A stretch of DNA of 64,000 nt, taken from the NCBI GenBank assembly GCA_903884535.1, contig CAISEZ010000067.1:358-64357 (forward strand), written 5' to 3'. Position numbers and translations under genes: made by a program. The notes beneath the pieces were generated by a model. That model was given only the letters and a program-made list of their open reading frames with translations, did not search any database and was not told where the DNA came from. How positions within the stretch are numbered: the stretch's first letter is position 1; every line of letters begins with the position of its first letter. This DNA comes from an uncultured Verrucomicrobia subdivision 3 bacterium (GTDB lineage Bacteria > Verrucomicrobiota > Verrucomicrobiia > Limisphaerales > UBA11358). Shown piece after piece: positions 32,901-54,440 of this stretch.

Positions 32901-32983
32901 GCCACTTGAGCGCGCCCGAACTGCAAAGCAAAAACCAATGGCAACAAAAGCAAAAAAATCAAATATCTAAAGCGAACGGGCAT
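29948..32983 (-). CDS. sensor histidine kinase with periplasmic beta-propeller (Reg_prop repeats) and Y_Y_Y domain
   Basis: A signal or TM segment, then many repeats of the DGxLWVGTxxGL type, then Y_Y_Y-like FRYRLENYDEKW and a TM helix. The HisKA_3 H-box is ARDMHDEVGAKLTRL and the HATPase motif is DDGAGF...GGNGLGNMKERL. Confidence 0.9.
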   Translation of the reverse strand: MPVRFRYLIFLLLLPLVFALQFGRAQVATDTSHWSFRAWQTEDGLPDNSVTGVAQTADGYLWVATYGGLMRFNGTSFSAVPLPSLLKKSVRAMLIDPHGNFWLGMDSGAVICLEANKVRTFGTADGLSAERITSMALDREGAIWIISSGALCRIKNDKVSRFSTSEGLPAGVNAWVCSDANGELWLSKGGQVGVFRDGRFQQKLSFNETSVRILGAANSGLWLCVGSSLLKYEENQTPLALARFTNNVEPQVLFETRAGALWIGTAADGLFRFKAGVLEKVPTSHQSVNCVSEDREGNIWAGTRGGGLNFIRSSAVKLIGRDAGLPFESVASVCQDTEGVMWVASQSGTLSKLQNGKWEIFGADAGWTNDAATCVAADKKGGVWVGARNRTLNFFHNGVWQSWQRTNNLRGGAVHLIFVAANDDVWVVTGSPSRIQRLRDGKLADPLPLPGVNHTIRAMTESDDGTLWVGTLEGQVLRVEDSSLVVETAVMQENSSPVRALETTADGALWVGYAGAGIGRLQAGKMTRITEADGLMDDFASQLLADRSGNLWIVGNRGVFQVQSNELAAVAGGRPGKLRSQVFGRNEGLPNFQPNTSSFPNVCKADDGRLWFALRSGLLTVQPENIRANPAPPPVVVERAQVDDQTAALYAGGSPVQTEDGTGLPDLRQADAVLHIPPGHRKVEFEFAALSFASPENVRFRYRLENYDEKWLDAGKAERSARYPHLLAGDYRFRVLACNNAGVWNDTGAVVAIVVAPFFWQEWWFRALVLLAFTASVVAIVRYVSFRRLRLRMLRLEQQSALERERARIARDMHDEVGAKLTRLSLLSEMAGGNPDLPATASGDVKEISDTARETIRSFEEVVWAVNPRNDTLADLVNYLCRYAEDYFDGSLVRCVFDLPPEMPNCGLPTEVRHQVFLAAKEAFTNVLKHANARRVRVQLALAGNEFKIIIEDDGAGFDVAAPPKRAGGGNGLGNMKERLRSVGGQVECTSTPGQGTRIVFQAPRNPEAAP

Positions 32984-34558: not shown

Positions 34559-36304
34559 TCAAGGGAGGGCCACGCCAATGCGGTAGAAACGCTGGGAACT
34601 GGCCGTGTTGGTGTCGCCGAGGAAGTCCACGCCACCGCTGCCGGCGAGATTGGTTTGCGTCGAGACCGGATTCCATGCGCCGGCGGTCAGGCTGGTGGCG
34701 TAAAACAGAGAGTATTTCCGGCTGGCCGAGGATTGATAATAGACCTTAATGCCGCCGGCGTTGGTGACGCTTTGAATCTTGAAATACGAAAGCGCATTCG
34801 TGGGATTAGTGTCGGCAACGTATTCGTTAAAATTGCTCACGCCGTCATGATCCGGGTCGCCACCGGCACAAGAGGCGGCGTTCGTCGTGGTGCCGCTACC
34901 ACCGAAGTATTGTCGCCGCCAGCCGTCGGGGATGCCGTCGCCGACGTGATCCACGCTGCTGTAGTTTCCGCCGCGCACCAACCGGACAAAATTAAAACTA
35001 CGAATCGCATCGCCTTGCGGACCGAATGAATATCCCTTGTAAACCACACCATTGTTGGTGACGAAATAAGTGATGGCGGGGAAGCTGTAAGGCGGCCCGG
35101 TCTTTGGATCACTGCGCTGCGCACCGGCACCGTGGACATCCACCCATTTGGGATTGGTGGACGGCCAGCCGAGCGCCCGGCCAAAGGCGACATAGTCTGC
35201 ATCCGTGCCGCCGGTGTTGTTGGTGCTGTAGCCGCCATGAGTGGTGGAAGTCCAGTAATACGGAAAATCCCGCTGCCCGGCCTCGTTGGTGATGACGGAG
35301 CAGGTGAAGTAATTTGTATCAACCGCCGGCAGGCCGTTGTAGTCGGGCGCATTCGAGTAGTTGACGATGCTTTGCAGTTCCTTGACGTTTGGCATTCGCC
35401 AGTCATTGTGACCAAGATACGTTGCGGTGTTCTGCGCCTGCACCCAGGCCAGAGCGTTCGACCAGAGAATGCCCGACGCATTATCAGTTTGCGACCATGT
35501 GAGTCCGGTGGCCACATCGGTAATGGTTCCATCCCCGTTGTTGGTGAAGTTGTTCATACCATAGTTCGTTCCAGCACGGACCAATTGCACATAAAATGTC
35601 TTGAGCGTATGGCTCAAAACATCCGTCTCGTCATAACCCTTGATGCGGCCGTCAGAGAAATTCACGCCGAAATCTTTTTCGAAGCCGGATTCGCTGGGGT
35701 CAAAAATAAACGTGGTGCTCGAAGCATACTGCTGGTCAATCAGCCGTTCGCCGAGAGCAGTGTTGCCATAGGCGAACAGAAAATAGTTCGTGTTGATAAA
35801 CGGCGTCAGGACGGAAGTGTCCGAACCCGTGTAACTGCTCGGATCCGTGCCGCGACAATCAAAGAGCGCATACAATTCCTTGAGCGTCGGCAGCCGCCAG
35901 TCGCTGAAGCCGCCCCAGTTGGTGGCGTTCACTTTCGTGACCCACGCGGGAATGTTGGTAAAAACCATCCGGTCGGTTTTGACGGGCGGCGTGAGCGTGA
36001 GATTCGGGCTGCGCATCCAAGTCAGACCCGTGTTGTTGTCGCGAACCGTCTTGCCATCGCCGCTCAGCGTGTAGCTGGACTGGTTGCCGAAGACCTGACC
36101 GTCCTGACCATAAAACGCCAGCCCCAACAATGGCGCATTGGTGATGCCGCTGGTGCTGTAACAGTTGGTCTGCATGGTATCTACGACGAACCAGGCAGGT
36201 GCGGCGGTGACATTACTGGCAGAACGTCCAACCGTCAGCAGTGCAAAAAAGATGAACCAGTTTTTCACGGCTTGATTCTGCGCGAAGAAACCTTTAGCAG
36301 ACAT
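34559..36304 (-). CDS. secreted DUF1566 (Lcl C-terminal-like) domain protein with FYRI C-terminal module
   Basis: Two DUF1566-type motifs (GLTWMRSP...FSDWRLPTLKELYALF and GLTWSQ...HNDWRMPNVKELQSIV), a GDPDHDGVSNFNEYVADTNPTNA calcium-binding-like linker, and the tail ...SQRFYRIGVALP. The start is set at MSAKGFF (36304). Confidence 0.7.
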   Translation of the reverse strand: MSAKGFFAQNQAVKNWFIFFALLTVGRSASNVTAAPAWFVVDTMQTNCYSTSGITNAPLLGLAFYGQDGQVFGNQSSYTLSGDGKTVRDNNTGLTWMRSPNLTLTPPVKTDRMVFTNIPAWVTKVNATNWGGFSDWRLPTLKELYALFDCRGTDPSSYTGSDTSVLTPFINTNYFLFAYGNTALGERLIDQQYASSTTFIFDPSESGFEKDFGVNFSDGRIKGYDETDVLSHTLKTFYVQLVRAGTNYGMNNFTNNGDGTITDVATGLTWSQTDNASGILWSNALAWVQAQNTATYLGHNDWRMPNVKELQSIVNYSNAPDYNGLPAVDTNYFTCSVITNEAGQRDFPYYWTSTTHGGYSTNNTGGTDADYVAFGRALGWPSTNPKWVDVHGAGAQRSDPKTGPPYSFPAITYFVTNNGVVYKGYSFGPQGDAIRSFNFVRLVRGGNYSSVDHVGDGIPDGWRRQYFGGSGTTTNAASCAGGDPDHDGVSNFNEYVADTNPTNALSYFKIQSVTNAGGIKVYYQSSASRKYSLFYATSLTAGAWNPVSTQTNLAGSGGVDFLGDTNTASSQRFYRIGVALP

Positions 36305-36329
36305 TAAGCCGGAAAATATTTTGCGGCAT

Positions 36330-37880
36330 TTACACATGAAGCACCTTTGCCTTAACGGTGTAACTGTGCGCGATGTCGCCGGTCTTATTCTGTGCCGTTT
36401 CGTCTTTCGGCAAAAAGCTGCGGACGTATTCCACCTTTACACTTTCCGGCGAGACGGTGACGCGCAAGTGACCGGAGTTCGGCAGCTTCACGCCAGATTG
36501 GTAGCGATCCTCATTGTAAGTCATGTAGCCGTGATCGGCCGGCATCGGCACTTCCTGGTAAACTATGCCGTCGCGTTCCTGCCGACAAAAAAGATGGTCG
36601 TGGCCCTGGAAAAAAATCGTGACGCCATGTTTCACCATGAGCTGATGCACCGGCAATTCCCAGCCGGGCCGACGTTCTTTGAATTCGTAGTCGCCGCGAC
36701 GATTTTTGCCGCCCCATTCATACAAATCACATTCGTCCACGCCGCCGCGACCGGTGCCGAGAACGTGATGCGCGAAGACAAATTTATATTTTGCCTTACT
36801 GGTTTCAAGCGTGCGTTTGAACCAATAATATTGCATGTCGCCAAGTGTTAGTTCCCACCAATCGCGTTGCCCGCGTCCAGCTTTGCCGCCGCCCATATCT
36901 TGCTCGCGAAACCCGCTGTCTACCTGCGCCGGGGAATGCCAGTAGTTGTCCAGGATCACAAACAATGCGTCGCCCCACGTCCACGCGCAATAATCTTTGC
37001 GTAGGCCAACCGACGGCAGCGTCTCGGTGTCGCCGGAATAAAACTTGTCCGGCGCCGGCGTGGGATAAAATTGGTTGCGCGCGTTTTGCACGTGAACGGC
37101 GACGGCGTGGCGTTCGTCGGTTTGATTGAAATTAAACAGCGACGCCTGTTCGTGATTTCCATTCAACAGAAACACCGGCGCAGACTGCGCGACGAGACCG
37201 AGAAACGGCCGTTGCAAAGTGTAGCGTTCAGCAACCGACTCAAAATTAACCTCGCGCACCGGCGTGACGCTGAAATCATCGCCCATGCAAATGTAAAAAT
37301 CCGGTTTGTCGGCGGCGGCGTTGAGCAAGGTGCGCGCATACAAGTTTGGTTCGCTCATCTGCGGACGTTCCGGATGCGAGTCGCCCTGAATCGCAAACGT
37401 AAACGTGTTGCCCGCCGCGCGCTGCGTGTGAAAACGGCACTCCGGTCGTGCGATGAAATTCGTTTCGCCCGGCTTGCGAAATTGCAGCCGGTAAAAATAC
37501 TGCGTGTTCGGCTGCAATTTCTCGAAAACGGTTTCGCCCGGTTTGTTCGCCGCAAACGTGAGCATGAAAGTTTTGTTCGAGTAATTCCCGGCCGAAGTTC
37601 CGTATTCAAAAAATCCTTCAATCGTTTCCTTGGCCAGCGAGTTCACAGACACCGCCTGATCGCTCACGCGGCCAAGCACCAGCGACAACCAACTGAACGA
37701 CGCGAGTTCTGGCGGCAGCACATAATCTTGCGCGTCGCGGTGATTGCGACCGCCGCCGCCGCCGCCAACTCTTCGGCGCTGGCCGGGTTCGTTGTTTTGC
37801 GCGGCTAGCGGCAGAGAAAACCACGCGAGCGTTGAAGACAGAAGCAGGAGGAATTTCCTACGATTAGCTGTGAATTTCAT
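36330..37880 (-). CDS. secreted metallophosphoesterase (paralog 2, intact motifs)
   Basis: A signal peptide is followed by GDSH, MGDDF, NGNHE, FAHH and GHDH, the full calcineurin-like phosphoesterase motif set. The start is set at MKFTANRRKF (37880). Confidence 0.75.
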   Translation of the reverse strand: MKFTANRRKFLLLLSSTLAWFSLPLAAQNNEPGQRRRVGGGGGGRNHRDAQDYVLPPELASFSWLSLVLGRVSDQAVSVNSLAKETIEGFFEYGTSAGNYSNKTFMLTFAANKPGETVFEKLQPNTQYFYRLQFRKPGETNFIARPECRFHTQRAAGNTFTFAIQGDSHPERPQMSEPNLYARTLLNAAADKPDFYICMGDDFSVTPVREVNFESVAERYTLQRPFLGLVAQSAPVFLLNGNHEQASLFNFNQTDERHAVAVHVQNARNQFYPTPAPDKFYSGDTETLPSVGLRKDYCAWTWGDALFVILDNYWHSPAQVDSGFREQDMGGGKAGRGQRDWWELTLGDMQYYWFKRTLETSKAKYKFVFAHHVLGTGRGGVDECDLYEWGGKNRRGDYEFKERRPGWELPVHQLMVKHGVTIFFQGHDHLFCRQERDGIVYQEVPMPADHGYMTYNEDRYQSGVKLPNSGHLRVTVSPESVKVEYVRSFLPKDETAQNKTGDIAHSYTVKAKVLHV

Positions 37881-37893
37881 GATTTCCTTTTGG

Positions 37894-40800
37894 TTAGCGG
37901 TGTGCGTTGATTCGGTAAAACAGATTGGTTCCACCGGCGGTGCCAGTAGGCAGCACTGAATTAGTGATGCTGGTGGGTGGCGGGTTGGTGAAGATGGCAG
38001 TCCATTGAGGTGCCGGAAGCGTCGGCGAACATTCGAGGTATTGCCAGGCGTTGACGCCGCCGATCCAAGTGAGGTTTACATTGGTGCCGACGACGTTGAG
38101 ATTGATGAAGGCTAAACGGGAAGCGGCATTCGTCGGATTGAGGTCGGCGGTGTAATTTTGCAGCGTCGTGTTGCCGTTCGAGTTGATGAGACTCGCGACG
38201 GACGCGAGCGTGGGATCGAAGCCGTATTTGATGGCCCAACCGTCGGGAATACCGTCGTTGGCGGAAGACCACACGTTCGGATCGAGGCCGTATTGAAATT
38301 CTTGAATATCCGTCAGCCCGTTGCCCGAATGACTGCTCGTGGCGGTGACGGCGGAGAGAGTGCCGAAGTGTGCGCGCACCCAGATGTCGGGCAGACCGAG
38401 GCCGACCGTGTCGGTCGCCGCGCCGTTGTAAGTTTCAATCGTGCCGCGCGGCGTCAAATCCTTGCCGGTGAAGCCGGAAAAATTCGTCGCGTAACGATGG
38501 ACTTTGAAAACTTCATTGAGCGTCTGTAGTGGAAAATTCGTGTTGCTGTTCGGATCGAATGGAATGGTGCTGCCCTGGGCCAGCGGAGTGGTGGTCACAG
38601 GACTGATGTATTTCCAAATGGTTTGCGAATTACTGGTGACTTCAAACAGCGTGCCGCGAATGCCAAAAGTGATGAGCGTGTCGCCGTTGGGTTCGCGTTC
38701 CACGCCGCCGATGTCCGCACCATAAAAATTCGTCGCCGGATTGTTGGTGTATTGCCAGAAATAACTCGTCGGCCCGAAATAGGTGTTGCCGACACGTGAA
38801 TAAAAACCATTCGCGTCCACCGGCGGCGCAATTTCATCAATCGAAGTGTAAGCCGGATTGGCGCGGTTGATTCCGTTGTCGTGAATGAGAATATGGCCCG
38901 CACCGGGACAATTGGTCGGAATCCAAATGGCGCAGTGCTGTTGCCAGAGCATTTCTTTGTGCGTCGCGTCGGTGAGATTGTTGACGGCCGGATTGCCCCA
39001 GCGATAAAGCAAGTCACCACCTTTGCCGTAGCGACCACCGGTATGGCCGGCAGCTTGCGCGGTCGTCGTGCTGTGGTCAATTACCCAAATTTCGCATTGA
39101 TTGCGCGAGCTGATGAGGATTTGGTCAAGCTGCGGGTTGTAATCAATGCCGTTAAAATGATTCCAGAACTGTTGGAGCGGGCCGCTATTGGCGTTGATTA
39201 GCTCTACGTGATTGCTGACCACGCCGTAGTTGGATTTGGTCACGTCATTTTGTTGGACGAGGTGATCCCAGACGTGCCACTGCCAGACAATCGTGCCGTT
39301 GGTCGTGCCGTCCTTCGCGGCGGGCTGCACTTCAACAATGGCGTCGGGCAGCAAGTAACCGCCGTTGGTGGTCACGCTAACTTGCGTCTGCGAATTCGTC
39401 TGAAAACCGGCGGCGAGAACTTCCGCCAAAGGCTTCTCCTCACACATAATCATCAGCACATTGCCGTTGGGCAAAAGCGCGATGTCGTGATGGCTGAGGT
39501 TCGTGATGGTGTTCTGTTCATAGCACCAGACCAGATTATTTTGCCAGTCGCGCTCTTCCAACCGACCGCCCTCCCCGCCGCCGGTGTTGAGCAGCGATTG
39601 CGAGCCGAGCGAACAAGTCCGCAGCAAATGGCCGTTGGGCATGAGATATTCCGAGCGGCCGGGGTTGTAAGTGGTCGTCCACTGGTGAACATACTGACCG
39701 GTGTTGTTGATCAGGTAAGTGGTGTCGGCCTGCATCGGCGAGAACAGCGTGTAACCCGGCTGCGCAGTCGCGAGGTTGGTGAACAGACCCACCGTCTGCG
39801 TCAGTTTTTCCTGACGCATCACCCGGAAGCCCGTTTGACTCCACTGACCGTAAGGATCGCCGGGCGGACCGCCGCCGAGAAAATACGACGGATCACGATT
39901 GGAAACCCGCGCGTGGCCGTAGTCGAAGTCGCTCGCCGAATTGCCGTTCCACCAAGTGCCCCCACGCAGGCAGCGGTAGGGCGAGCCGTTGAAATAATCA
40001 TTGGTGGTCAAAATGGAAAGCACCGGACCGGGTGGATTGGTGACAATGTTGTTGTTCGTGCAATAGGCGTAGTAATTGTTCATATACCAGTCGTTGCACC
40101 ACTCCCACACATTACCGCCCATGTCGTAGATGCCGTAGGGATTCGAGCCGTCGCTGGTCTGATAAGTCGTCTGGCTGCCGGGCCAGTTGTAATTCGTCGT
40201 GTAACGCAGCGCACCGTTGTAAAAGCCCACCGGTGTCGTGCAGGGATAATCGTTCGTCGTTTCAAACGGGTCGCCGGAATTTTCCCAGTTCGCATAGGAG
40301 CCGTCGGCGTTGGTATTCATGCCCCACGGGAACATGACGTAGGGATTGGTCTGCCCGCCGTGGGCGGCGTATTCCCACTCGGCTTCGGTTGGTAAGCGCC
40401 AGCCATTCGCGCTGATATCCACATCGCCGTTGGTAAGATTGTAACACGCGTTGAAACCATTCGTCTGGCTCAACCAATTGCAATACGCAATCGCGCCGAA
40501 CCACCGCACGCTCGTGACCGGATGCAAATCGCGGCTGCTTAGCACGACGAACGTTCCGCTCTGATACTGAATGCGGCTCGATGAGGAAGCGTCGTGCGTG
40601 TAAAAATATTCATTCGTGCCGCCGACGGCATAGACGACGTTATTGCTCACCGTGATCAAGCCCCGCGCCAGCGCGGCGTTCAAGTAGTCGCAATACTCAC
40701 GGCAGGTCACGAGCGTCGTGTCCATATAGAGCGGCGAGATGTAAACATTGTGAACCGGCACTTCGTCGGTGTAATGCTTGATGTCAATGTAGTCAAACTG

Positions 40801-41451
40801 GTCGCCCATCAGAAAATTCCCGCCGGGAATCCGCACGTATTGCGCCGTGAATGGAATGATGGCGTTGGAAGTGCCGGTGGTGGTCGTGAGGGCGATTTGG
40901 TCCAGAAAGATCCGGTTGCCGGTATTTCCTTCGCTGAATTCAAAGCGCAAGGTCAAATTGCTGACCAAGTCGCCGGGTTGAAGGTTGTAGGTGTAAAGTT
41001 GCCAGCTTTGGCTTGCGGAAGACTGACCAGAAAGGCGGGTTGTGAAACCCGTTCCAGGATTGATCTGCATCGCCCAACCGGCATTGCTGCTGGTGATATT
41101 GACCTGAAGATAAAACGTCAGCGTGGCGCTGTTGCCGCGAGCATCAATCGGCAACGTCGTGGTGATGGTGCTGTCGGTCAGATTGGTTGTGCCACTCTTG
41201 AACGAAAAACCGTTGGTATTGCCGCTGCCATAATTGGCATTCGGATTTTGCTCGAAGGGATTATTGACACTGAAAGTGACAGCCCAAGGATTATTGCAAC
41301 CCGAACCGGTCCAAGGCTTGACCACATTGGTCGCCATCGTTTCCAAAAAAACCACCGTGTTTGTCGTTGCCGCACTTGCGCTCCACACTCCGACCAATGC
41401 GGCCAGCAACAGCGTCATCCGAAGAAATAACTGATAGCGAATCGTTCTCAT
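37894..41451 (-). CDS. secreted multidomain protein: N-terminal lectin/CBM-like domain, FGE-sulfatase-fold (SUMF1/EgtB/PvdO-like) domain, arylsulfotransferase (ASST)-like beta-propeller, FYRI C-terminal module
   Basis: The FGE-fold segment is VRIPGGNFLMGD...RWFGAIAYCNWLS...GWRLPTEAEWEYAAHGG...GNVWEWCNDWY...RCLRGGTWWN...GFRVMR. The ASST-like segment is GYTLFSP...TYLINNTGQYVHQW...HHDIALLPNGNVLMI...DLLYRWGNP. An IPDGWAIKYGFDP linker precedes the tail ...NLFYRINAHR. Confidence 0.75.
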   Translation of the reverse strand: MRTIRYQLFLRMTLLLAALVGVWSASAATTNTVVFLETMATNVVKPWTGSGCNNPWAVTFSVNNPFEQNPNANYGSGNTNGFSFKSGTTNLTDSTITTTLPIDARGNSATLTFYLQVNITSSNAGWAMQINPGTGFTTRLSGQSSASQSWQLYTYNLQPGDLVSNLTLRFEFSEGNTGNRIFLDQIALTTTTGTSNAIIPFTAQYVRIPGGNFLMGDQFDYIDIKHYTDEVPVHNVYISPLYMDTTLVTCREYCDYLNAALARGLITVSNNVVYAVGGTNEYFYTHDASSSSRIQYQSGTFVVLSSRDLHPVTSVRWFGAIAYCNWLSQTNGFNACYNLTNGDVDISANGWRLPTEAEWEYAAHGGQTNPYVMFPWGMNTNADGSYANWENSGDPFETTNDYPCTTPVGFYNGALRYTTNYNWPGSQTTYQTSDGSNPYGIYDMGGNVWEWCNDWYMNNYYAYCTNNNIVTNPPGPVLSILTTNDYFNGSPYRCLRGGTWWNGNSASDFDYGHARVSNRDPSYFLGGGPPGDPYGQWSQTGFRVMRQEKLTQTVGLFTNLATAQPGYTLFSPMQADTTYLINNTGQYVHQWTTTYNPGRSEYLMPNGHLLRTCSLGSQSLLNTGGGEGGRLEERDWQNNLVWCYEQNTITNLSHHDIALLPNGNVLMIMCEEKPLAEVLAAGFQTNSQTQVSVTTNGGYLLPDAIVEVQPAAKDGTTNGTIVWQWHVWDHLVQQNDVTKSNYGVVSNHVELINANSGPLQQFWNHFNGIDYNPQLDQILISSRNQCEIWVIDHSTTTAQAAGHTGGRYGKGGDLLYRWGNPAVNNLTDATHKEMLWQQHCAIWIPTNCPGAGHILIHDNGINRANPAYTSIDEIAPPVDANGFYSRVGNTYFGPTSYFWQYTNNPATNFYGADIGGVEREPNGDTLITFGIRGTLFEVTSNSQTIWKYISPVTTTPLAQGSTIPFDPNSNTNFPLQTLNEVFKVHRYATNFSGFTGKDLTPRGTIETYNGAATDTVGLGLPDIWVRAHFGTLSAVTATSSHSGNGLTDIQEFQYGLDPNVWSSANDGIPDGWAIKYGFDPTLASVASLINSNGNTTLQNYTADLNPTNAASRLAFINLNVVGTNVNLTWIGGVNAWQYLECSPTLPAPQWTAIFTNPPPTSITNSVLPTGTAGGTNLFYRINAHR

Positions 41452-41456
41452 GGCGG

Positions 41457-41843
41457 TTAAGCAGGCAGGCCGTCTTTCTTCCCCACCAACGCCTCCAGCT
41501 TTTGTTCAGCAATTTCCATGTCAGACAATTTCGGGGCAGCAGCAGTGACTGTTTCCGGTTCGGTTGGCTGGACCACCGGCAACACCGGTTGACTAATTTT
41601 GCCAGTCTCCGGATATGCCATGCGGATCAACCAATTTCCGCGTAGCAGCCAAATGGCAACGGTCAGCGTAAAGGCAACCGGTAGGAAATTGGTTACGATG
41701 TTGATGAGCGGCGTGCTACGTGCCTGCGCCAGCACCATGAAGCTTTGCACGACGAGATCTTTCAGGCCGATGCAAAGGAAAAATAATCCAGTGAGCCGCA
41801 CCGCCAGCCGGAATATTTCCTTGTAGATATTTGTCTCTTTCAT
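41457..41843 (-). CDS. hypothetical small membrane protein
   Basis: A 128-aa ORF (MKETNIYKEIF...) with two hydrophobic helices and an acidic/coiled tail. It fills the gap between two large secreted-protein genes. The longer 354-aa ORF in the track overlaps the upstream gene and is rejected. Confidence 0.4.
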   Translation of the reverse strand: MKETNIYKEIFRLAVRLTGLFFLCIGLKDLVVQSFMVLAQARSTPLINIVTNFLPVAFTLTVAIWLLRGNWLIRMAYPETGKISQPVLPVVQPTEPETVTAAAPKLSDMEIAEQKLEALVGKKDGLPA

Positions 41844-41893
41844 GTTATTTGCTCTTTCTGTTTTGGTTGTTCTTTTCGGAATCATTGTTTTGC

Positions 41894-44419
41894 TTACCAC
41901 ATTAGCCGATAAAATTTCTTTGGCTGGCTTGAGACCGGATTGGTGTCGGTCCAGGTGTTGGTTTGTCCCACATTGAGATTGGTCCAAGTCATCAGCTCGA
42001 AGGACCACTGAACACAGTAGTTCAGCCCTGATTGTCCCGACCATTGCAAGATCATGTTGTTCGTGGCGATGGCACCATTGAGCAGGCCGTTTGCAGGAAT
42101 GTTGTAGCTGTAGCTGACCATCCGATTGGTGATGCCGGGGCCGGGCGAGGCCGGCGGATAGGCCGAAGAATACGAGCGCACATACTCCACCGTGACGATG
42201 ACTGGTGAGACGGTGACCCGCAAATGACCGGAGCTGCCAAAGAAAACGCCGCCTTGATAGTTGTATCCAAAGTTGGTGCCCGTGGCATAACTGTAGGAGT
42301 CGTAAGGGTAATGACTCGGTTGCGGAGTCTCCTGATAGATCAAATCTGGGCTGCCGTTGGTCGCGCCGCTGGCGTAGTAATCCTGTTTGCAAAAAAGATG
42401 GTCGTGACCGTGGAAAAATATTTGCGCGTGATTGGTCAACAGCAAGGCGCGGATCGGCATCGGCCAGCCCGGACGATGCGACGCAAAACCCGGCGTGCCG
42501 TTGGTATTCAGACCACCCCATTCAAAGTAAGGCGAAAACTCCAGCCCGCCGCGCGCCTGAGTGTCCCAACTGCCACCAATCAAGTGGTGAGCGAAAACAA
42601 ATTTGTATTTGGCCGTGCTGTTTTCCAGCGTGGACTTGAGCCAATAGTATTGATTCGTGCCGAGCGTCCACGCCCATGGGTCACTGGATTTGGTAACGCC
42701 TTGGTTGCTATACCAGAACGGGTCGAGCATCACGAACAGTGCGTCACCCCATTCAAAGGCGTAATACGCATCACGCGGTCGCTGCTGGTAATTGTCCACG
42801 CTGGTCGCACCTGAATAGAACCCACCGGGAATCGGGCACGCATAATATTGCTCCCGCGCGGTCGCGCCCCAAACCGGCGAGCAGTCATGTGGAGCACTGT
42901 TGCTCAACATCCAGCCCAGCTCGGGATCATGATTTCCGTTCACCAGAAACAGCGGCACTGAGTGGCCGATGATGCTGAAATATCTAGCCCGCGCATCGGC
43001 ACAATCAAAATTGAGGCTCGGCTGGGTCAGCGCATTGGTAATGCCGTAGTAATTATACAGCTTTTCACCCATGAACGTGTCGCCGAGGTCCACAAAGAAA
43101 TCCGGCTGATCGTTTAGAACATTGGTGTAGGTCTGCTTCCAAACGGCATCCACCGTTCCCCCGCTGCTAAGGCCGAAATCGCCATAATGCGGGTCCGCAT
43201 CAATGTCGAAAGTAAAGGTGCTGCCCCGTGCCCGCTGGGTGACAAAAGTGTGTTCCGCTCCGGTGTTGAATGAAGTCCCATTGTTGGTCGAGTAACACAT
43301 CCGGTAGAAATACCGTTGATTACGCTGAAGCTGGTCAATCATCAGCGGCGTTGGCACACCGTTGGTAATGGAAATGGTCGCGCTCAGGCCGGTGTAATAT
43401 CCCGATTGCGTGCCGTATTGGAAATACACTTGAAGATTTTGATTCGCGAGCACGCTCACGGCAATTGAAGTGTCCGTTGGCCGTCCCAGCATCAAATCAT
43501 AGCTCACAGCGGGTTGAACCGTGTAGCTGTAAGTTGAATTTGGCGCAGTCACCGGATTTGTCGCCGACAGGCTGGCAACGTCTGTGGCCGTCAGGAAATA
43601 ATTCACGGTCGTGCCGGAGGAAAATGCCGGAATTTGCCCGCCATAAATTCCGTCATCCGGGGCGCTGTCATGGTGCAGACCGTCGTCGAACATCACCACA
43701 TTCGTCCAACTGTCGCCACCGGTCGTCCCCACCACTGAAATCTGGTCTAGTAGAATCTTGTTCGTGTTTCCGCCGCCGGCAAACTCAAAGCGCAATTGAA
43801 GATTGGAAACCAATTCCGCAGAATGCAGATTATAATGGTAAAGCTGCCAGTTGTGAACAGAACCGGTCAGGTCGCTCATGCGGGTGACGAAGCCAGAACC
43901 AACGTTCAGTTGCATGGCCCAGCCGGTGTTGGTGATCAAATTTGCCGTCTTGATATAAAACTCGATGAATCCCGAATTTCCTTTGGCGTTGATACCGTTT
44001 CCGGTCGTGATGGTGCTGTCAGTGAGATTGACCGTTCCTCTGGTGAATTGTAATACGCAGGGATTGCCGCCGTAGTTTAAATTCGTGACCTGCGAGAACG
44101 GGTTTGTGCCGTTGTAGCCGACCGTCCATGGATTGTCGCAGCCCGACCCAGTCCACGGACTGAGGCCGCTCGCATTGGTGTCCATAGTTTCAAGAAAGAC
44201 GGTGTTGCTGAGAATCGGCGTCTCACTGGTAGTATAAGCCAGCGTTACGGATGCCAGGCTCACCGTATCTGTCACGCCCGCCGTGACCCAAACCGAATTG
44301 CCCTCAATCGCAACCGGGTTCGTCACGCTGAAAATTGCCGGCAATCCGTCGGCCATCGCCTGGCGGCTGACGGCAAGGACAAACGCCAGAGCAATAAACT
44401 TACGCAAGTAACTATTCAT
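41894..44419 (-). CDS. secreted metallophosphoesterase (paralog 3) with N-terminal lectin/CBM-like domain and FYRL C-terminal module
   Basis: The motif set ADPH, LGDTF, NGNHD, FAHH and GHDH is intact. The N-terminal ~150-aa domain is homologous to that of 37894-41451 (FLETM..PWTGSGC.NPW...NLTDSTITT...GWAMQ.N.G.GF.TR......WQLY.YNL...LVSNL.LRFEF). The tail is ...KKFYRLMW. Confidence 0.75.
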   Translation of the reverse strand: MNSYLRKFIALAFVLAVSRQAMADGLPAIFSVTNPVAIEGNSVWVTAGVTDTVSLASVTLAYTTSETPILSNTVFLETMDTNASGLSPWTGSGCDNPWTVGYNGTNPFSQVTNLNYGGNPCVLQFTRGTVNLTDSTITTGNGINAKGNSGFIEFYIKTANLITNTGWAMQLNVGSGFVTRMSDLTGSVHNWQLYHYNLHSAELVSNLQLRFEFAGGGNTNKILLDQISVVGTTGGDSWTNVVMFDDGLHHDSAPDDGIYGGQIPAFSSGTTVNYFLTATDVASLSATNPVTAPNSTYSYTVQPAVSYDLMLGRPTDTSIAVSVLANQNLQVYFQYGTQSGYYTGLSATISITNGVPTPLMIDQLQRNQRYFYRMCYSTNNGTSFNTGAEHTFVTQRARGSTFTFDIDADPHYGDFGLSSGGTVDAVWKQTYTNVLNDQPDFFVDLGDTFMGEKLYNYYGITNALTQPSLNFDCADARARYFSIIGHSVPLFLVNGNHDPELGWMLSNSAPHDCSPVWGATAREQYYACPIPGGFYSGATSVDNYQQRPRDAYYAFEWGDALFVMLDPFWYSNQGVTKSSDPWAWTLGTNQYYWLKSTLENSTAKYKFVFAHHLIGGSWDTQARGGLEFSPYFEWGGLNTNGTPGFASHRPGWPMPIRALLLTNHAQIFFHGHDHLFCKQDYYASGATNGSPDLIYQETPQPSHYPYDSYSYATGTNFGYNYQGGVFFGSSGHLRVTVSPVIVTVEYVRSYSSAYPPASPGPGITNRMVSYSYNIPANGLLNGAIATNNMILQWSGQSGLNYCVQWSFELMTWTNLNVGQTNTWTDTNPVSSQPKKFYRLMW

Positions 44420-50111: not shown

Positions 50112-53100
50112 TTATGGAGAGCGGAGCCGATAAAACCGCTGCGCGCTGTTGGTCGCATTCGAGTCGGTAAATTGAAAGAAACCGTTGGAGTTTTGCGTGG
50201 CGACGCCGAGCACCGGCCAATTGATCAACGGAATGGCCAAATTGGTGGTGCCAAGCACAGTCTGGGTGAAATTGGAATTGCCCTTGAACTGAATTTGAAA
50301 TTGGCCCGGCGAACCGACCATTCCAACTGAGCTGATCGTTGGCGGAATTGAGTTGGTCGTCGCCGCTGCACTGGCAAACGAGGCCTGAAAAGTCGCGCCG
50401 GGCGCGCTGCTGACATTCACGGACAGCACGATTTGCGGAGTGAGTTGCACCACGGTCACGCCGGCATCTGCCGACAAAACACTGGAAGCCGCCTGGTTCA
50501 ACGTCACGGTGACCGAACCCGGATTGACTTGCGTGGGGTCGGAAACGCCCACCGAGATACTGTTGGAATTTTGCAACGTGATGACCGAAGCCTGATTGTT
50601 CACTGAAATCAGGTCGGCGGAGTTATTGCCGCTGGTCCAGAAATTCGCCGCCACGACCCCGAGTGACGGCTTGCTCACCGCCTGCACGGTCGAGGTGTTG
50701 GTTAGCACGATGATGTCCGCTGCGGCGGCGTAGTTGCTGACGCTGGCGGCGCTCATGTTTGGGAGGAGGACATAGGCGTAGGTCGCGTTGGCTGGTCGCA
50801 CGCCGTGCTTGAAATACAGTTTCAAATAATTGTCCGTGTAGGTGGCCGAGTCGGAGGCGGTGGGGCGGATGTCCGTCCATTTGCCAGAGTTGGAGGTGAA
50901 GGTGGCGAGCAGATTGTTCGCGCCACCTGGAAAATAGTATCCGCCGACGCCATCAAGCGCACACCAAGAGGCGCTGGTGAGATTAGATCTCCAGCCGATG
51001 TTCGGGGCATTTTGCACGCCGTTGACCCAGAAATTATTCGTAGGCGAAGCGCCCAGCAGTCGGCGGTTTTCTACGGTGGTGTCCACCGCGTTGGGCTCGT
51101 TGCAACTTATTCCTGCCCCGAGGCAAATGATTTCATTGTCCAGCATGAACCAGGATTTTTTGGCGTTCAGGGTGGAGTAAACGCCGTTCGTGCCGAGGGG
51201 GTGCAAGGACATGCCAGCCACGCCGTAAGTATTCGCCACCTGCGCACCGCCAACCCAGTCTTGATCGGTCGTGTTTGGCAAAGCGTTCCAATTCGTCTCG
51301 GAAGTTGTCCCGGGCAGGTGATAATAATCCACGGTGGCCCAGTAGGTGTCGGTAAAGTTGGAGTCTGCGTTGCCCGCGTAAAGATAAGTCATACCGTCGC
51401 CGGTATCCCAGCCCTTCATATTATTGGCCGCGGAAGGGACAACGGTTTCGTTTTCGTAATTCGCAATTCTTGTGGATGACAGGCTCAAACCAAAACCAAA
51501 TCCGCTGCGTAGCGCTACTACGCGGTCCATGTTGTAGTAATGAAACTGCCCCGAAGCCAGTCGCGGCGTGTTCGCAAAGGTATTCAGTGCCGTTGCGACA
51601 TTCGTGTCCGTGGCAAACCCCGCGACGAAGCGGATGTCTGAAACAGCCTGGGCGCCGGCGGTGTATTCCGAGGTCGTTAAATCGCGTCCGCGCACCATGT
51701 CCATCAATGCCCCGTTGTAAATGAACGGCTCAAGATATGTGGCCCAGGCATAAACATTGGCCACGCCCGGATCGGTGATTTCCCACGGCGAGTTGTGTAG
51801 CAGATTCACGAGATTTCCAACCGTCTCCAACTGCACTAGCCCGTATTGGCCGTTGTAAGCCACATTACCGTGAAAAATATACGTGCCATCGCTGTAAAAC
51901 CCATCGCCGGCGGTTACATAAGGAAACGCGCGGCTCAAATTGGTCTGCGCTTCCACAATCTTGCCGTTGTTTTTGCCGAGAGCGCCGCGAACGATGCCCA
52001 CAAGAACAACACTGCTCAAGTTCGCGCCGGTCAATTGCGGCCAGCCGAAAGTCGCGTTGATCATCTTCGCGCTGTCAGGCCCGAAGTTATCCACCGCTGC
52101 GCAGTAATTGGAAATCTGCGTGGCGTTAAGAAACGGATAGAGTTCAACGACGGTGTTATTAAAAGCTTGCGCCCCGGAAATTTCCCAGTGAAACCAGTTG
52201 TCGTAAAAAGACGTTGCGGTTTTTGTGTAAACATTGGTGTTCATCCAATCCAATCCGTTGGCAATCGCGGTCGCCAGCGCGGCATTGGTGTAAAGCGAGC
52301 AGGTCGGCAGCGCATAAGCCAGCGCCATGGATTGCAAGCGCTGGAAGGTGCTGACCATGTTCGCCGAAACCGAACCTAACGGTAGGTCGCTCCACAAATA
52401 AAAACTGCCAGCGGACGGCGATGTGTTTATGGGACTACTACCCATCCAGTATTTGGTGGCGGTGCTAGCGACGCTCGTCGGTGTGGCGGCAGCGTTGAAT
52501 TGGTTGGTCAGCCAGACCAGCCTTAAGACGTCGAAGGGGTCGTAATTCAAGATGGTCAACGACGCGGGCGTGGAGGTCACAGCAACGGAGCAACCGCCAA
52601 AAGCCACGGCGCGATACTGGTAGCCGTTCATGTTGGTTGTGGTAGTGCCGGTGACGTAACTCGCTGTCGTGCCGCCCGTGCCATTGGTTACGTTAAGCCA
52701 GGTGAGACCGCCGTTCGCGCTGAACTGCCATTGGTAGGAAGCCGTGTTGATGGCGGTCAGGCTGAAGGTTGGCGTGAAACCAAAGCCAGTGATGACATTG
52801 ACGGGTGGAGTAATGACGTAGGCCAGATTGCTGCTGGGAGTTGCGACGTTGCTGTCAATCGACTTGGCGCTCTCACCGCCGCACGCCGCCACGGCGGTGA
52901 CCGCATAGACGTAATTGCTACCGTTAATCGCCGTCAAATCTGAGTAGCCGGTCGTGAAGCTATTTCCAATCGGCGTTCCATACGAACCGCCGTTCAGCTT
53001 CCGATATACGTTATAGTTGGCTGCGCCCGCGACGGAATTCCAACTCAAGGTCACCGGGCTGCAAACCGGAGTATTGGCCGCGACACCTGATGGCGCAGTA

Positions 53101-54440
53101 GAAGGCGGCGTGCAATCACCGAGCGCAAAATCGGATGACGCCGTCAAACTGATTCCCGCCGCAGAATAATTCGGCGCGGCAAATGTCGTCGGATATATGT
53201 TCGTGCTGCTTCCGTTGTAAGCCAGCAACACCGCTGAGTTCGCTGGAACATAGCCCGTGCCGTCCAAAGTCAAAGTAGCAACGTTGCCACTGCCCACCGA
53301 ACTCGCGACCGTCCAGTTGCGATTAGTGAACAGCGGCACTCCGGCTACGTTTGCGCTAAGCGAACTTGGCTCATGCGGCGTGACAGTGATGCTCGGCGTT
53401 CCGCTCAAGGTCGTGAGGTTCAGCGAAACCGGCCGGTAGTTGCCATTCGTGCCGATGGGATATGTTTTGGAAACGGCCGTGGAAAAGATTTGCGCCAGCG
53501 GTCCGCTGATGAATGTATTTGAAGTCGCGCCAAGAATTGCGCCCGCTGTTCCCATCGTCAGCAGATTCGCCGAGGTCGTTTTGAGAACGCCCGTGCTTAG
53601 GGTGAGATTTCCATTCACGGTGCAAGGTGCGCTCATTGTCACACCTGCCGCGTTGCTGATGGTTAAGTTATTGACCGCTGAAGGCAGCCCGGCAGTGACC
53701 TGCGCGGTGCTGCCGTTGAAAACAAAATTCGCCGTCGCATTCAGCGTCGGCGCGGTGACGTAATTCAGCATCGGCGTCGCCGAACCGCTGACAAAGATTC
53801 CATTTGGATTCGCGGTCTTGAGCGTTGCGCCTGAACCGAGAACGAAGGTGTTGTTAGCGTTGCCGTTGGCGTTGATGACTTGCGTGCCTGCGATCAAAGT
53901 TCCGTTCACCGTTAATTGCGTCGTGCCAGTGCCGCTCTTAAATTTGATCCCCGTGGTCAGCCCGGAAACGTCCAGCGTCACCCCGTTGGTCACGATCACG
54001 TAAAATTTTCCAGCCGAAGTGTCTCCTGATCCCGTCCAAGTCGCGTTGCCGGATGCAAAGGTGATTTTTGTCCCCGATGAACCTCCGTTGGCGAAGCCCG
54101 CGCTGCCGCTGTTGGAGTTGACCAAGTTGCCGTAAATATTAAGCGTGCTTTGACCTGAAGTAGTGACGTTCTCCAGCGCCCCGCCAGCATCAATAGTCAA
54201 ACCGCCGCACGAGACGGTGGTGGACGCATTTGTATCCACCACGACCACCGCGCCACTTCTGATTTCCACCGTATCGTTCGGGCCGGGTAATCCGTTAGGT
54301 GACCAAGTTGTCGCGGAACTCCAATTCGCTACTCCGTTATTTGTGGCTATGTAGGCGGTCGCTGAGGCACGCTGTGGAATCAGGCTTAATGCCGCCACTA
54401 AAACGCACGCCGTCGCAAAACGTTGAAGGAAGATAGACAT
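50112..54440 (-). CDS. large secreted polysaccharide lyase family 8-like enzyme with N-terminal beta-helix-type repeats, Fn3/Ig-like domains and FYRL C-terminal module
   Basis: The N-terminal ~450 aa consist of Gly/Thr/Asn-rich beta-strand repeats. Fn3-like (LSWNSVAGAANYNVYR) and Ig-like segments follow. The PL8-type core has DNWFHWEISGAQ and FYSDGTYIFHGNVAYNGQYG, comparable to the NWW..EIG and DGS.I.H....YTG.YG motifs of hyaluronate/chondroitin/xanthan lyases. The tail is ...AQRFYRLRSP. Confidence 0.75.
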   Translation of the reverse strand: MSIFLQRFATACVLVAALSLIPQRASATAYIATNNGVANWSSATTWSPNGLPGPNDTVEIRSGAVVVVDTNASTTVSCGGLTIDAGGALENVTTSGQSTLNIYGNLVNSNSGSAGFANGGSSGTKITFASGNATWTGSGDTSAGKFYVIVTNGVTLDVSGLTTGIKFKSGTGTTQLTVNGTLIAGTQVINANGNANNTFVLGSGATLKTANPNGIFVSGSATPMLNYVTAPTLNATANFVFNGSTAQVTAGLPSAVNNLTISNAAGVTMSAPCTVNGNLTLSTGVLKTTSANLLTMGTAGAILGATSNTFISGPLAQIFSTAVSKTYPIGTNGNYRPVSLNLTTLSGTPSITVTPHEPSSLSANVAGVPLFTNRNWTVASSVGSGNVATLTLDGTGYVPANSAVLLAYNGSSTNIYPTTFAAPNYSAAGISLTASSDFALGDCTPPSTAPSGVAANTPVCSPVTLSWNSVAGAANYNVYRKLNGGSYGTPIGNSFTTGYSDLTAINGSNYVYAVTAVAACGGESAKSIDSNVATPSSNLAYVITPPVNVITGFGFTPTFSLTAINTASYQWQFSANGGLTWLNVTNGTGGTTASYVTGTTTTNMNGYQYRAVAFGGCSVAVTSTPASLTILNYDPFDVLRLVWLTNQFNAAATPTSVASTATKYWMGSSPINTSPSAGSFYLWSDLPLGSVSANMVSTFQRLQSMALAYALPTCSLYTNAALATAIANGLDWMNTNVYTKTATSFYDNWFHWEISGAQAFNNTVVELYPFLNATQISNYCAAVDNFGPDSAKMINATFGWPQLTGANLSSVVLVGIVRGALGKNNGKIVEAQTNLSRAFPYVTAGDGFYSDGTYIFHGNVAYNGQYGLVQLETVGNLVNLLHNSPWEITDPGVANVYAWATYLEPFIYNGALMDMVRGRDLTTSEYTAGAQAVSDIRFVAGFATDTNVATALNTFANTPRLASGQFHYYNMDRVVALRSGFGFGLSLSSTRIANYENETVVPSAANNMKGWDTGDGMTYLYAGNADSNFTDTYWATVDYYHLPGTTSETNWNALPNTTDQDWVGGAQVANTYGVAGMSLHPLGTNGVYSTLNAKKSWFMLDNEIICLGAGISCNEPNAVDTTVENRRLLGASPTNNFWVNGVQNAPNIGWRSNLTSASWCALDGVGGYYFPGGANNLLATFTSNSGKWTDIRPTASDSATYTDNYLKLYFKHGVRPANATYAYVLLPNMSAASVSNYAAAADIIVLTNTSTVQAVSKPSLGVVAANFWTSGNNSADLISVNNQASVITLQNSNSISVGVSDPTQVNPGSVTVTLNQAASSVLSADAGVTVVQLTPQIVLSVNVSSAPGATFQASFASAAATTNSIPPTISSVGMVGSPGQFQIQFKGNSNFTQTVLGTTNLAIPLINWPVLGVATQNSNGFFQFTDSNATNSAQRFYRLRSP

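What the first reader, a model, noticed from the sequence alone, without database searches (positions are those of the whole stretch)
34559..44419. Shared C-terminal module ending in FYR[LI] on five unrelated secreted enzymes: candidate sorting or anchoring tag
Five large signal-peptide proteins with unrelated catalytic domains end in the same ~60-80 aa module:
- S53 protease (9784-12732): ...KKFYRLEFIQ
- DUF1566 protein (34559-36304): ...SQRFYRIGVALP
- FGE-like/ASST-like protein (37894-41451): ...NLFYRINAHR
- metallophosphoesterase (41894-44419): ...KKFYRLMW
- PL8 lyase (50112-54440): ...AQRFYRLRSP

Upstream of the FYR motif they share an alternating hydrophobic strand, a G..xY.L/V...S/T..L segment and a conserved Trp about 25-35 residues before the end. 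Two of them enter the module through DxDxDG...NPTNA linkers.

A conserved extreme C-terminal beta-sandwich on otherwise unrelated exported enzymes is how known cargo tags behave, for example T9SS CTDs and PEP-CTERM/exosortase signals. No matching sorting machinery is visible in the window. I cannot tell whether this module already has a family name.
Basis: partly seen in the sequence, partly recalled or inferred. Interest (0 to 1): 0.7.

Follow-up and report, generated by a model that had tools for sequence, protein, structure and literature searches.

The report
Unnamed C-terminal beta-sandwich on Verrucomicrobial exported proteins
Five unrelated exported proteins in this Verrucomicrobiota genome piece end in the same ~75-residue fibronectin-III-like domain, which has no family name and almost always sits at the very end of secreted proteins, so it may help place them on or outside the cell, though that is unproven.

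Summary
Exactly five ORFs in the window end in FYR[LI]. An HMM built without them or their closest relatives finds all five tails (E 1.7e-28 to 1.8e-12) and nothing else (next E 0.29).

What the module is:
- A ~75-aa all-beta domain, predicted by AlphaFold2 as a six-stranded sandwich (pLDDT 84). Its nearest solved folds are FN3 domains, none significantly.
- No Pfam or NCBIfam model covers it, even at E<=10.
- A profile of the five tails hits up to 20,954 cluster representatives, an upper bound because canonical FN3 arrays cross-hit.
- Genome hits are almost all Verrucomicrobiota MAGs.

Position is tightly constrained:
- 115 of 120 carrier ORFs in 80 related loci plus the window end within 5 aa of the module.
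- 116 of the 120 closest S53 homologues carry it, always terminally.
- The stop falls 4-5 aa after FYR in 85% of terminal copies.
- Carriers have signal peptides and very diverse passenger domains.

Against a pure tag: the module also forms tandem arrays, internal copies keep FYR, and about 5% of carriers have further domains after it. FYR is therefore the domain's last strand, not a terminal peptide. No sorting machinery was found.

The sorting or anchoring reading is plausible but unproven. This is a new, unnamed domain family used much like known C-terminal cargo domains.

The parts
9787..10041 (-). C-terminal FYR module (last 85 aa, structured part about 75 aa) of the S53-type protease; ends ...KKFYRLEFIQ
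   Evidence: sequence; independent HMM, E 1.7e-28, ORF residues 899-981; alignment A1.
34562..34816 (-). C-terminal FYR module of the Lcl_C/DUF1566 protein, preceded by a TSP3-like DPDHDG...NPTNA segment; ends ...QRFYRIGVALP
   Evidence: E 2.1e-18; upstream linker sequence.
37897..38151 (-). C-terminal FYR module of the FGE-sulfatase/ASST fusion protein; ends ...NLFYRINAHR. It is one of the two weakest-scoring tails, with MPE.
   Evidence: E 1.6e-13; AlphaFold2: six strands, pLDDT 83.7, pTM 0.72; FN3-like fold matches.
41897..42151 (-). C-terminal FYR module of the 841-aa metallophosphoesterase; ends ...KKFYRLMW
   Evidence: E 1.8e-12; two tail-less paralogues stop just after the shared catalytic-core end motif.
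50115..50369 (-). C-terminal FYR module of the PL8 polysaccharide lyase; ends ...QRFYRLRSP
   Evidence: E 1.8e-22; AlphaFold2: six strands, pLDDT 84.1, pTM 0.68; best folds are FN3 domains, none with E<=1e-3.
9784..12732 (-). Carrier 1: signal peptide, Pro-kumamolisin activation domain, S53-type protease, BACON-like Ig, DUF642-like domain, Ig_3, then the module
   Evidence: In some searches, 116 of the 120 closest homologues keep the module at the extreme C-terminus while the middle domains vary.
34559..36337 (-). Carrier 2: signal peptide, Lcl_C (DUF1566) domains, TSP3-like segment, then the module. The alternative start at 36304 gives 581 aa.
37894..41451 (-). Carrier 3: signal peptide, FGE-sulfatase domain, arylsulfotransferase (ASST) beta-propeller, then the module
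41894..44419 (-). Carrier 4: signal peptide, N-terminal Ig-like region with a choice-of-anchor X motif, Metallophos/PhoD core, then the module
   Evidence: NF041940 scores 28.2 bits against a cut-off of 25; NCBI name: 'MAG: metallophosphoesterase [Verrucomicrobiota bacterium]'.
50112..54440 (-). Carrier 5: signal peptide, G8-like N-terminal region, PL8 lyase (Lyase_8_N, Lyase_8, Lyase_8_C), then the module

Best explanation
The five tails are copies of an unnamed, Verrucomicrobiota-centred domain family. It is a ~75-residue, six-stranded, FN3-like beta-sandwich. Its last strand carries the F-Y-R-[LIVA] motif, and it ends 4-5 residues later, usually in Pro or Gln.

The lineage adds this domain to the extreme C-terminus of Sec-exported, multi-domain extracellular proteins, both enzymes and adhesin-like repeat proteins. 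The most likely role is a folded C-terminal localisation module. After export it is recognised by, or binds to, a cell-envelope component or partner protein. The passenger is thereby kept at, or delivered to, the cell surface. In some proteins tandem copies form a stalk that ends in the same terminal unit.

Shown: homology of the tails, the lack of a family name, the fold class, the positional constraint, the signal peptides, the passenger diversity and the taxonomic range.

Inferred: any role in localisation, the binding partner, and whether the module is cleaved.
For: Homology and scale:
- An independent HMM hits all five tails and nothing else in the window.
- The five-tail profile finds 20,954 cluster representatives at E<=1e-3 and 860 at E<=1e-10.
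- No Pfam or NCBIfam model matches.

Position:
- In about 138 of the 150 best hits the last copy ends within 8 aa of the C-terminus.
- In 1.2 Mb of related loci plus the window, 115 of 120 carrier ORFs end within 5 aa of the stop, and 117 have a single copy.
- Among the 120 closest S53 homologues (893-1658 aa, shuffled middle domains), 116 carry it. All 116 are terminal and 115 are single copy.
- The stop lies 4-5 aa after FYR in 331 of 391 terminal copies. The last residue is P in 59% and Q in 23%.

Export and cargo:
- A signal-peptide heuristic is positive in 83 of 109 complete carriers and in all five window proteins.
- Sixty-nine carriers hold 61 Pfam families, including Kelch, PKD, LRR/BspA, LamG, Ig, FGE-sulfatase and YDG.
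- Of three paralogous metallophosphoesterases in one gene cluster, only one extends into the module.
- That carrier also holds a choice-of-anchor X motif above its cut-off.

Fold and host:
- Two AlphaFold2 models give the same six-strand topology (pLDDT 84, pTM 0.68-0.72).
- The best PDB folds are FN3 domains (TM 0.55-0.63).
- Seventy-nine genome loci are almost all Verrucomicrobiota MAGs.
Against: - The module is repeatable. Of the top 150 hits, 142 have 2-8 copies.
- Internal copies keep FYR in 250 of 299 cases, and terminal copies are hardly distinct. No feature specific to the terminus has been found.
- About 5% of carriers have further domains after it.
- No candidate machinery lies in the window or recurs near carriers. 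Recurrent neighbours are housekeeping genes.
- FN3-like domains are often passive spacers.
- There is a marginal local match to a CBM32/discoidin segment (E 3e-4 over 58 aa).
- No publication or experiment on this module was found.
Confidence: 0.45

Rival explanations
1. It is a true secretion signal domain, a functional analogue of the T9SS C-terminal domain. An as yet unknown outer-membrane translocon in Verrucomicrobiota would recognise the folded module at the C-terminus, and the module might then be cleaved off.
For: - Extreme C-terminal placement with the stop 4-5 aa after the last strand.
- A single copy in 117 of 120 genomic carriers.
- Size and beta-sandwich class similar to known cargo C-terminal domains.
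- Signal peptides and very diverse cargo.
Against: - No match to Por_Secre_tail or the T9SS type A and B models, even at E<=10.
- No T9SS C-terminal domain structure among the top 50 fold matches for either model.
- Tandem and internal copies, which secretion-signal domains are not known to form.
- No machinery found.
- T9SS is described for Bacteroidota (abstract of PMC10994853, listed), whereas the host here is Verrucomicrobiota.
Confidence: 0.2
2. It is a generic structural FN3/Ig-like module, acting as a spacer, a stabiliser or a folding aid. Its terminal position would reflect how these genes grow by domain accretion, not a localisation function.
For: - FN3-like fold.
- Tandem arrays with all motifs kept in internal copies.
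- Almost no difference between terminal and internal copies.
- The profile cross-detects canonical FN3 arrays such as P0077, where the FN3 F-strand YYYRL aligns with FYRL.
Against: - Passive spacers lie between domains. Here the module is last in 116 of 116 S53 homologues whose other domains are shuffled and in 115 of 120 genomic carriers.
- The distance from the last strand to the stop is tightly fixed.
- Sequence-level homology to FN3 is not supported: hhalign probability is 36% over the B-C strands only, and Pfam fn3 does not match.
Confidence: 0.2
3. It is a carbohydrate- or ligand-binding module that targets enzymes to a substrate such as a polysaccharide or a surface glycan.
For: - The host is a polysaccharide degrader: sulfatases, PL8, alginate lyase, GH2 and GH8 lie in the window.
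- There is a marginal local sequence match to CBM32/discoidin modules of a Paenibacillus glucanase/chitosanase (E 3e-4) and weak F5_F8_type_C_2 hints.
- Binding modules are often C-terminal and tandem.
Against: - Passengers include proteases, phosphoesterases, Kelch, LRR and PKD proteins, which share no substrate.
- The CBM32 match covers only 58 of about 135 residues, and the fold matches are FN3, not discoidin.
- The positional constraint appears stricter than would be expected for substrate-binding modules (own knowledge; not measured here).
Confidence: 0.12

Closest known systems
T9SS C-terminal domain (Por_Secre_tail, TIGR04183/PF18962; type B TIGR04131)
   Same: A 70-100-aa beta-sandwich at the extreme C-terminus of Sec-exported proteins with very diverse passengers, both enzymes and adhesins. 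It is usually present as one copy per protein.
   Different: There is no sequence match. Six strands are predicted, with FN3 domains as the nearest folds. The module occurs in tandem and internally. The host phylum is Verrucomicrobiota, and no T9SS genes were seen.
Fibronectin type III domain (PF00041)
   Same: FN3 is the best structural match (TM 0.55-0.63). The strand order is similar, the last-strand motif resembles the FN3 F-strand [YF]x[FYV]R[VLI], and both can form tandem arrays.
   Different: Pfam fn3 does not match, although it does match separate N-terminal FN3 domains in the same proteins. The hhalign probability is only 36%. Only six strands are predicted, and the protein stops where the FN3 G strand would begin. 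The strong C-terminal bias is not a known FN3 property (own knowledge; not measured here).
Bacterial pre-peptidase C-terminal (PPC) domain, PF04151 (comparison from my own knowledge of the family)
   Same: A small beta-sandwich appended to the C-terminus of secreted enzymes, sometimes in more than one copy. It is thought to aid secretion and to be removed afterwards.
   Different: There is no sequence match in the Pfam scans. The lineage differs. Here the passengers go far beyond peptidases.
PEP-CTERM/exosortase and LPXTG/sortase signals
   Same: They mark many unrelated exported proteins at the C-terminus. PEP-CTERM proteins occur in the same group of MAGs.
   Different: Those signals are short motifs followed by a transmembrane helix and a basic cluster. 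The FYR tails have no such helix or cluster and form a folded domain.

Membership tests
T9SS C-terminal domain (type A Por_Secre_tail, type B) | Sequence match to TIGR04183/PF18962 or TIGR04131 | tested here: not met
   hmmscan of the five tails against Pfam and NCBIfam at E<=10 gave no hits. Full-length scans show no such domain.
T9SS C-terminal domain (type A Por_Secre_tail, type B) | Single copy at the extreme C-terminus of a signal-peptide protein | tested here: inconclusive
   This holds for the five window proteins and for 115-117 of 120 genomic carriers. However, 142 of the 150 best hits hold 2-8 copies, and about 5% of carriers have domains after the module.
T9SS C-terminal domain (type A Por_Secre_tail, type B) | Host encodes the T9SS core (PorK/L/M/N, SprA/Sov, PorU/V) | not testable with these tools
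   None lies in the 64-kb window. The GldK/GldJ hits are far below cut-off and reflect only the shared FGE-sulfatase fold. Whole genomes could not be scanned.
Fibronectin type III (PF00041) | Sequence or profile match to the fn3 family | tested here: not met
   Pfam fn3 does not hit the tails or the FYR repeats of multi-copy proteins, although it does hit other domains in the same proteins. hhalign against an FN3 alignment gives a probability of 36% over 26 columns.
Fibronectin type III (PF00041) | Seven-stranded (A, B, C, C', E, F, G) beta-sandwich fold | tested here: inconclusive
   AlphaFold2 predicts six strands in both models. FN3 domains are the best PDB matches, but with E>=0.01 and TM 0.55-0.63.
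PEP-CTERM / exosortase-type and LPXTG-type signals | Short motif, then a hydrophobic transmembrane helix, then a basic C-terminal cluster | tested here: not met
   The tail sequences have no C-terminal hydrophobic helix or R/K cluster. A PEP-CTERM pattern scan finds 10 other proteins in the related loci.
CBM32 / discoidin (F5_F8_type_C) | Full-length match to the ~135-aa jelly-roll domain | tested here: not met
   There is only a 58-residue local match at E 3e-4 to 4zxe and 2rv9. The Pfam F5_F8_type_C models give no hit on the window tails. The fold matches are FN3, not discoidin.
Pre-peptidase C-terminal domain (PPC, PF04151) | Sequence match to PF04151 | tested here: not met
   No Pfam hit at E<=10 on the tails or at E<=1 on ten multi-copy proteins.

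The most novel reading that the evidence does not exclude
The FYR module is the cargo-recognition or attachment domain of an undescribed outer-membrane secretion or surface-display pathway in Verrucomicrobiota. It would be a counterpart of the T9SS C-terminal domain of Bacteroidota. Because the FN3-like fold appears to stop where the seventh strand would be, a partner protein might complete the fold by strand complementation.
Probability: 0.2. Interest if true: 0.85.

Novelty: new variant of a known kind. Interest (0 to 1): 0.55.

Why it matters
Verrucomicrobiota are major degraders of sulfated and other complex polysaccharides in soils, peat and waters. I found no account of how they place large enzymes and adhesins outside the cell.

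A large domain family (hundreds to thousands of sequence clusters) without a Pfam or NCBIfam name, fixed at the C-terminus of their exported proteins, gives three things:
- A simple sequence marker for the probable extracellular or surface proteome of this phylum.
- A concrete handle for finding a receptor or pathway, through reporter fusions, pull-downs and phylogenetic profiling.
- A domain model that would improve annotation of tens of thousands of 'hypothetical' tails.

If it proves to be only a structural FN3-like cap, the gain is limited to annotation.

Tried and rejected
- **Named families:** Pfam and NCBIfam scans of the tails at E<=10 gave nothing. Pfam scans of ten multi-copy proteins and 69 carriers found no family covering the module.
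- **Leave-one-out with four tails:** too weak to recover the FGE and MPE tails. A larger independent HMM resolved this.
- **Word-indexed search with the tail profile:** returned only short fragments, all 'hypothetical'.
- **Genome scan with the 55-sequence alignment:** It worked with a PL8-like tail subfamily, so the genome sample is biased towards that subfamily and its Kelch-type carriers.
- **Profile-profile test against FN3:** not significant.
- **PDB sequence search:** only a marginal local CBM32 match.
- **Fold search:** no hit at E<=1e-3 for either model.
- **Conserved neighbours of carriers:** only housekeeping synteny, namely DnaG, prephenate dehydrogenase, EPSP synthase, a sigma-54 response regulator and a TPR protein.
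- **Anchor swap among S53 homologues** (looking for PEP-CTERM or T9SS tails in place of the module): the 120 listed hits were all close relatives that keep the module, so the test could not be made.
- **NPTNA/DxDxDG linker as part of the module:** rejected because it is rare.
- **Stand-alone modules:** the 68-79-aa module ORFs all sit just downstream of longer same-strand ORFs. They are broken genes.
- **Literature:** seven searches found no description.

Full report
**1. Checking the observation**

The five minus-strand ORFs exist and end exactly as quoted. A six-frame scan for [FY][YF]R[LIVM] in the last 20 residues of ORFs of at least 80 aa returns these five and no others.

Pfam confirms unrelated passenger domains:
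- Pro-kumamolisin activation domain with Ig-like domains (S53-type protease)
- Lcl_C/DUF1566
- FGE-sulfatase plus arylsulfotransferase
- Metallophos/PhoD
- Lyase_8_N, Lyase_8 and Lyase_8_C

All five have signal-peptide-like N-termini. The start of the DUF1566 gene is ambiguous. This does not affect the finding.

**2. Is the similarity more than chance?**

Pairwise identity among the tails is only 25-33%. Leave-one-out HMMs built from four tails recover S53, DUF1566 and PL8 (E 1.7e-6, 3.7e-6, 4e-7). They miss FGE and MPE.

I then built a family HMM from module instances found elsewhere. It excluded the window tails and the top-listed relatives (five per tail) at 50% identity or more; others may remain in the training set. 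That HMM hits all five tails at E 1.7e-28, 1.8e-22, 2.1e-18, 1.6e-13 and 1.8e-12. The next window ORF scores E 0.29. The training instances were themselves found with the five-tail profile, so some circularity remains. The gap of more than eleven orders of magnitude is nevertheless decisive.

W and F-Y-R are invariant in the five tails and nearly invariant in a 55-sequence alignment.

**3. What the module is**

No Pfam or NCBIfam model matches the tails even at E<=10. No family covers the module in ten multi-copy proteins or is shared by 69 carriers.

AlphaFold2 models of the PL8 tail and of the FGE tail, one of the two weakest-scoring tails, agree. Both show six beta strands in the same order and spacing (pLDDT 84.1 and 83.7, pTM 0.68 and 0.72).

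Foldseek against the PDB gives no hit at E<=1e-3. The best real matches are FN3 domains with TM 0.55-0.63: neogenin FN6, PTP-delta, DCC, Tencon, and the FN3 domain of pectate lyase PelI.

At sequence level the link to FN3 is not established. hhalign gives a probability of 36% over the B-C strands only. However, the five-tail profile cross-detects a true FN3 array (P0077), and there the FN3 F-strand YYYRL aligns with FYRL.

A PDB sequence search gives only a marginal 58-residue local match to CBM32/discoidin modules (E 3e-4).

**4. Size and range of the family**

An exhaustive profile search of 1.84 billion cluster representatives gives 20,954 proteins at E<=1e-3 and 860 at E<=1e-10. The first number is an upper bound, because canonical FN3 arrays can cross-hit.

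A genome scan with a PL8-like tail subfamily returned 79 loci. Nearly all are from Verrucomicrobiota MAGs: Verrucomicrobiia, Pedosphaera, Limisphaerales, subdivision 3 and a few Akkermansiaceae. A minority carry other labels and come from automated MAG catalogues, so they may be mislabelled bins.

The window's own proteins occur in NCBI and ENA MAG assemblies. One cluster member is named 'MAG: metallophosphoesterase [Verrucomicrobiota bacterium]'.

**5. Position and architecture**

- **Top 150 hits.** These favour multi-copy proteins because scores add up. Of them, 142 hold 2-8 copies, often in tandem. Even so, the last copy ends within 8 residues of the C-terminus in about 138 of 150.
- **Internal copies.** They keep the [FY][FY][RK] strand in 250 of 299 cases, against 136 of 142 terminal copies. 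Terminal copies are only slightly closer to the terminal-tail profile: best-scoring in 62 of 129 proteins against 48.8 expected (z 2.5, +2 bits). FYR is therefore the domain's last strand and not a terminus-specific peptide.
- **Genome sample.** In 80 loci plus the window (1.2 Mb of loci), 120 ORFs carry the module. Of these, 117 have one copy and 115 end within 5 residues of the stop. The five exceptions include a family in which about 242 further residues follow the module.
- **Closest S53 homologues.** The 120 listed range from 893 to 1658 aa, and their middle domains vary widely. Of these, 116 carry the module, all at the extreme C-terminus, and 115 have a single copy.
- **Distance to the stop.** Across 391 terminal copies the stop lies 4-5 residues after FYR in 331. 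The last residue is Pro in 59% and Gln in 23%.
- **Short stand-alone ORFs.** These are ends of broken genes.

**6. The carriers**

A signal-peptide heuristic is positive in 83 of 109 complete carrier ORFs. Sixty-nine carriers together hit 61 Pfam families. These include Kelch propellers (32, reflecting the seed bias), PKD, LRR/BspA, Laminin_G_3, Ig, FGE-sulfatase, YDG and Big_3_5. Passengers are thus both enzymes and adhesin-like repeat proteins.

The window offers a natural comparison. Three paralogous metallophosphoesterases lie in one same-strand gene cluster and share the end motif of the catalytic core. The 474-aa and 534-aa proteins stop soon after that motif. The 841-aa protein continues into the module.

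That carrier also contains a choice-of-anchor X motif above its cut-off. By its name, this family accompanies alternative C-terminal anchors. That is a weak hint, taken from the family name rather than tested here.

**7. Search for machinery**

The window encodes sulfatases, PL8, alginate lyase, GH2, GH8, a Reg_prop/Y_Y_Y sensor kinase with a LuxR-type regulator, HupE, a PEBP-domain protein, PNPase, TilS, ParA, LarC and others. It encodes no secretion, sortase or exosortase genes.

Clustering of neighbours in the 79 loci found only housekeeping synteny. PEP-CTERM proteins occur in the same group of MAGs. The module is therefore not a substitute for that system in these genomes.

Whole-genome co-occurrence could not be tested with the tools available.

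**8. Interpretation**

The combination of features is what known cargo or anchor domains show. The module is almost always last, the distance to the stop is fixed, carriers have signal peptides, passengers are highly diverse, and paralogues differ by the tail. A passive spacer would not be expected to behave this way.

Against this stand several points. The module is repeatable, terminal and internal copies are alike, some proteins hold it internally, and there is neither machinery nor experiment.

I therefore rate a folded C-terminal localisation module, more likely surface retention or attachment than a cleaved secretion signal, as the best single explanation (0.45). The rivals are:
- A T9SS-C-terminal-domain-like secretion signal (0.2)
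- A generic structural FN3-like cap (0.2)
- A ligand- or carbohydrate-binding module (0.12)

**9. Comparison with known families**

The module works most like the T9SS C-terminal domain, or like the PPC domain as I know it. It fails the sequence tests for both.

It looks most like FN3 but fails the Pfam and profile tests. It also appears to lack the seventh strand.

It is not a PEP-CTERM or LPXTG type signal.

Seven literature searches found no description. The searched library lacks most subscription-journal papers, so this is not proof of absence.

**10. Verdict**

- Novelty: a new, unnamed domain family that is a variant of a known kind, namely C-terminal beta-sandwich modules on exported proteins.
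- Interest is moderate (0.55). It would be high if a dedicated Verrucomicrobial display or secretion pathway were found behind it.

Noticed in passing
window 33087-34511, 36330-37934, 41894-44419 (all minus strand): Three paralogous signal-peptide metallophosphoesterases lie in one same-strand cluster and share the core-end motif SGH[LV]RVTV.P..[MV].V.YV[KR]S. Only the 841-aa one continues into the C-terminal module and has a long N-terminal Ig-like extension. The cluster runs on into a YHYH+PEBP protein (44444-46039) and a HupE/UreJ membrane protein (46036-47223).
   Followed up: partly
window 37894-41451 (-): One 1185-aa exported protein fuses an FGE-sulfatase domain with an arylsulfotransferase (ASST) beta-propeller. 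Its weak GldK/GldJ hits reflect only the shared FGE fold and are far below cut-off.
   Followed up: no
window 9784-12732 (-): The S53-type protease belongs to a very large expansion: 7375 homologues at E<=1e-10 among the 8000 candidates scored. Middle domains are heavily shuffled (Ig_3, Big_9, Cadherin_5, DUF5011, HYR, CBM_4_9), while the N-terminal protease and the C-terminal module stay constant.
   Followed up: partly
window 34817-34900 (-), upstream of the DUF1566 module: A thrombospondin-type-3-like calcium-binding motif (DPDHDGVSNFNEYVADTNPTNALS) sits directly before the module. The FGE protein keeps only the NPTNA part. The motif is rare in the family overall (about 3-4% of instances).
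   Followed up: yes
window 29108-32983 (-): A Reg_prop/Y_Y_Y hybrid sensor histidine kinase (1011 aa) and a LuxR-type response regulator lie directly downstream of the exported-protein cluster. This pair may regulate the cluster.
   Followed up: no
window 54454-57030 and 56820-59267 (-): The ORF holding two alginate-lyase domains, read from its first GTG, overlaps the GH2 gene by about 210 nt. Its N-terminal 50 residues look non-native (Arg-rich, no signal peptide). The true start is probably further downstream.
   Followed up: no
L063:7274-9055 (+); proteins P0051, P0052, P0059, P0097: Some small and medium proteins consist of a signal peptide, one Big_9, fn3 or MBG domain, and 5-8 tandem FYR modules. 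These could be stalk or scaffold proteins built from the same module that caps the enzymes.
   Followed up: partly
L008:5106-7415; L021:3-908, 3390-5558 and 6828-9449: In one paralogous family the module is internal and is followed by about 242 residues ending in GFRV.LVT. This is probably an FGE-sulfatase domain, since four members of the carrier set hit PF03781. It is the main exception to the C-terminal rule in the genome sample.
   Followed up: partly
L002, L020, L031, L032, L036, L054, L056, L060, L062, L065, L066, L070, L073, L079, L080: These contigs encode PL8-like-tail carriers but are labelled Binatia, Saccharimonadales, Bifidobacteriaceae, Acidoferrum, Limnocylindrales, Acetobacteraceae and similar. 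They come mostly from automated MAG catalogues. The labels probably reflect mis-binning or mislabelling rather than true spread of the module.
   Followed up: no
L015:9950-10186, L016:9971-10186, L021:10828-11049, L045:9944-10147: Module-only ORFs of 68-79 aa sit immediately downstream of longer same-strand ORFs. The carrier genes appear interrupted by a frameshift or stop, so these are pseudogenes or assembly errors.
   Followed up: yes
module residues about 20-60 (for example window 50190-50310, minus strand): The segment 'Y.L..TTNL....W..L' resembles the 'Y.iqvS.D...nWt.v' segment of discoidin/CBM32 domains. The PDB profile match is E 3e-4 to 4zxe and 2rv9, with weak F5_F8_type_C_2 and DUF3999 hints. 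I could not tell whether this reflects distant homology or convergence.
   Followed up: partly
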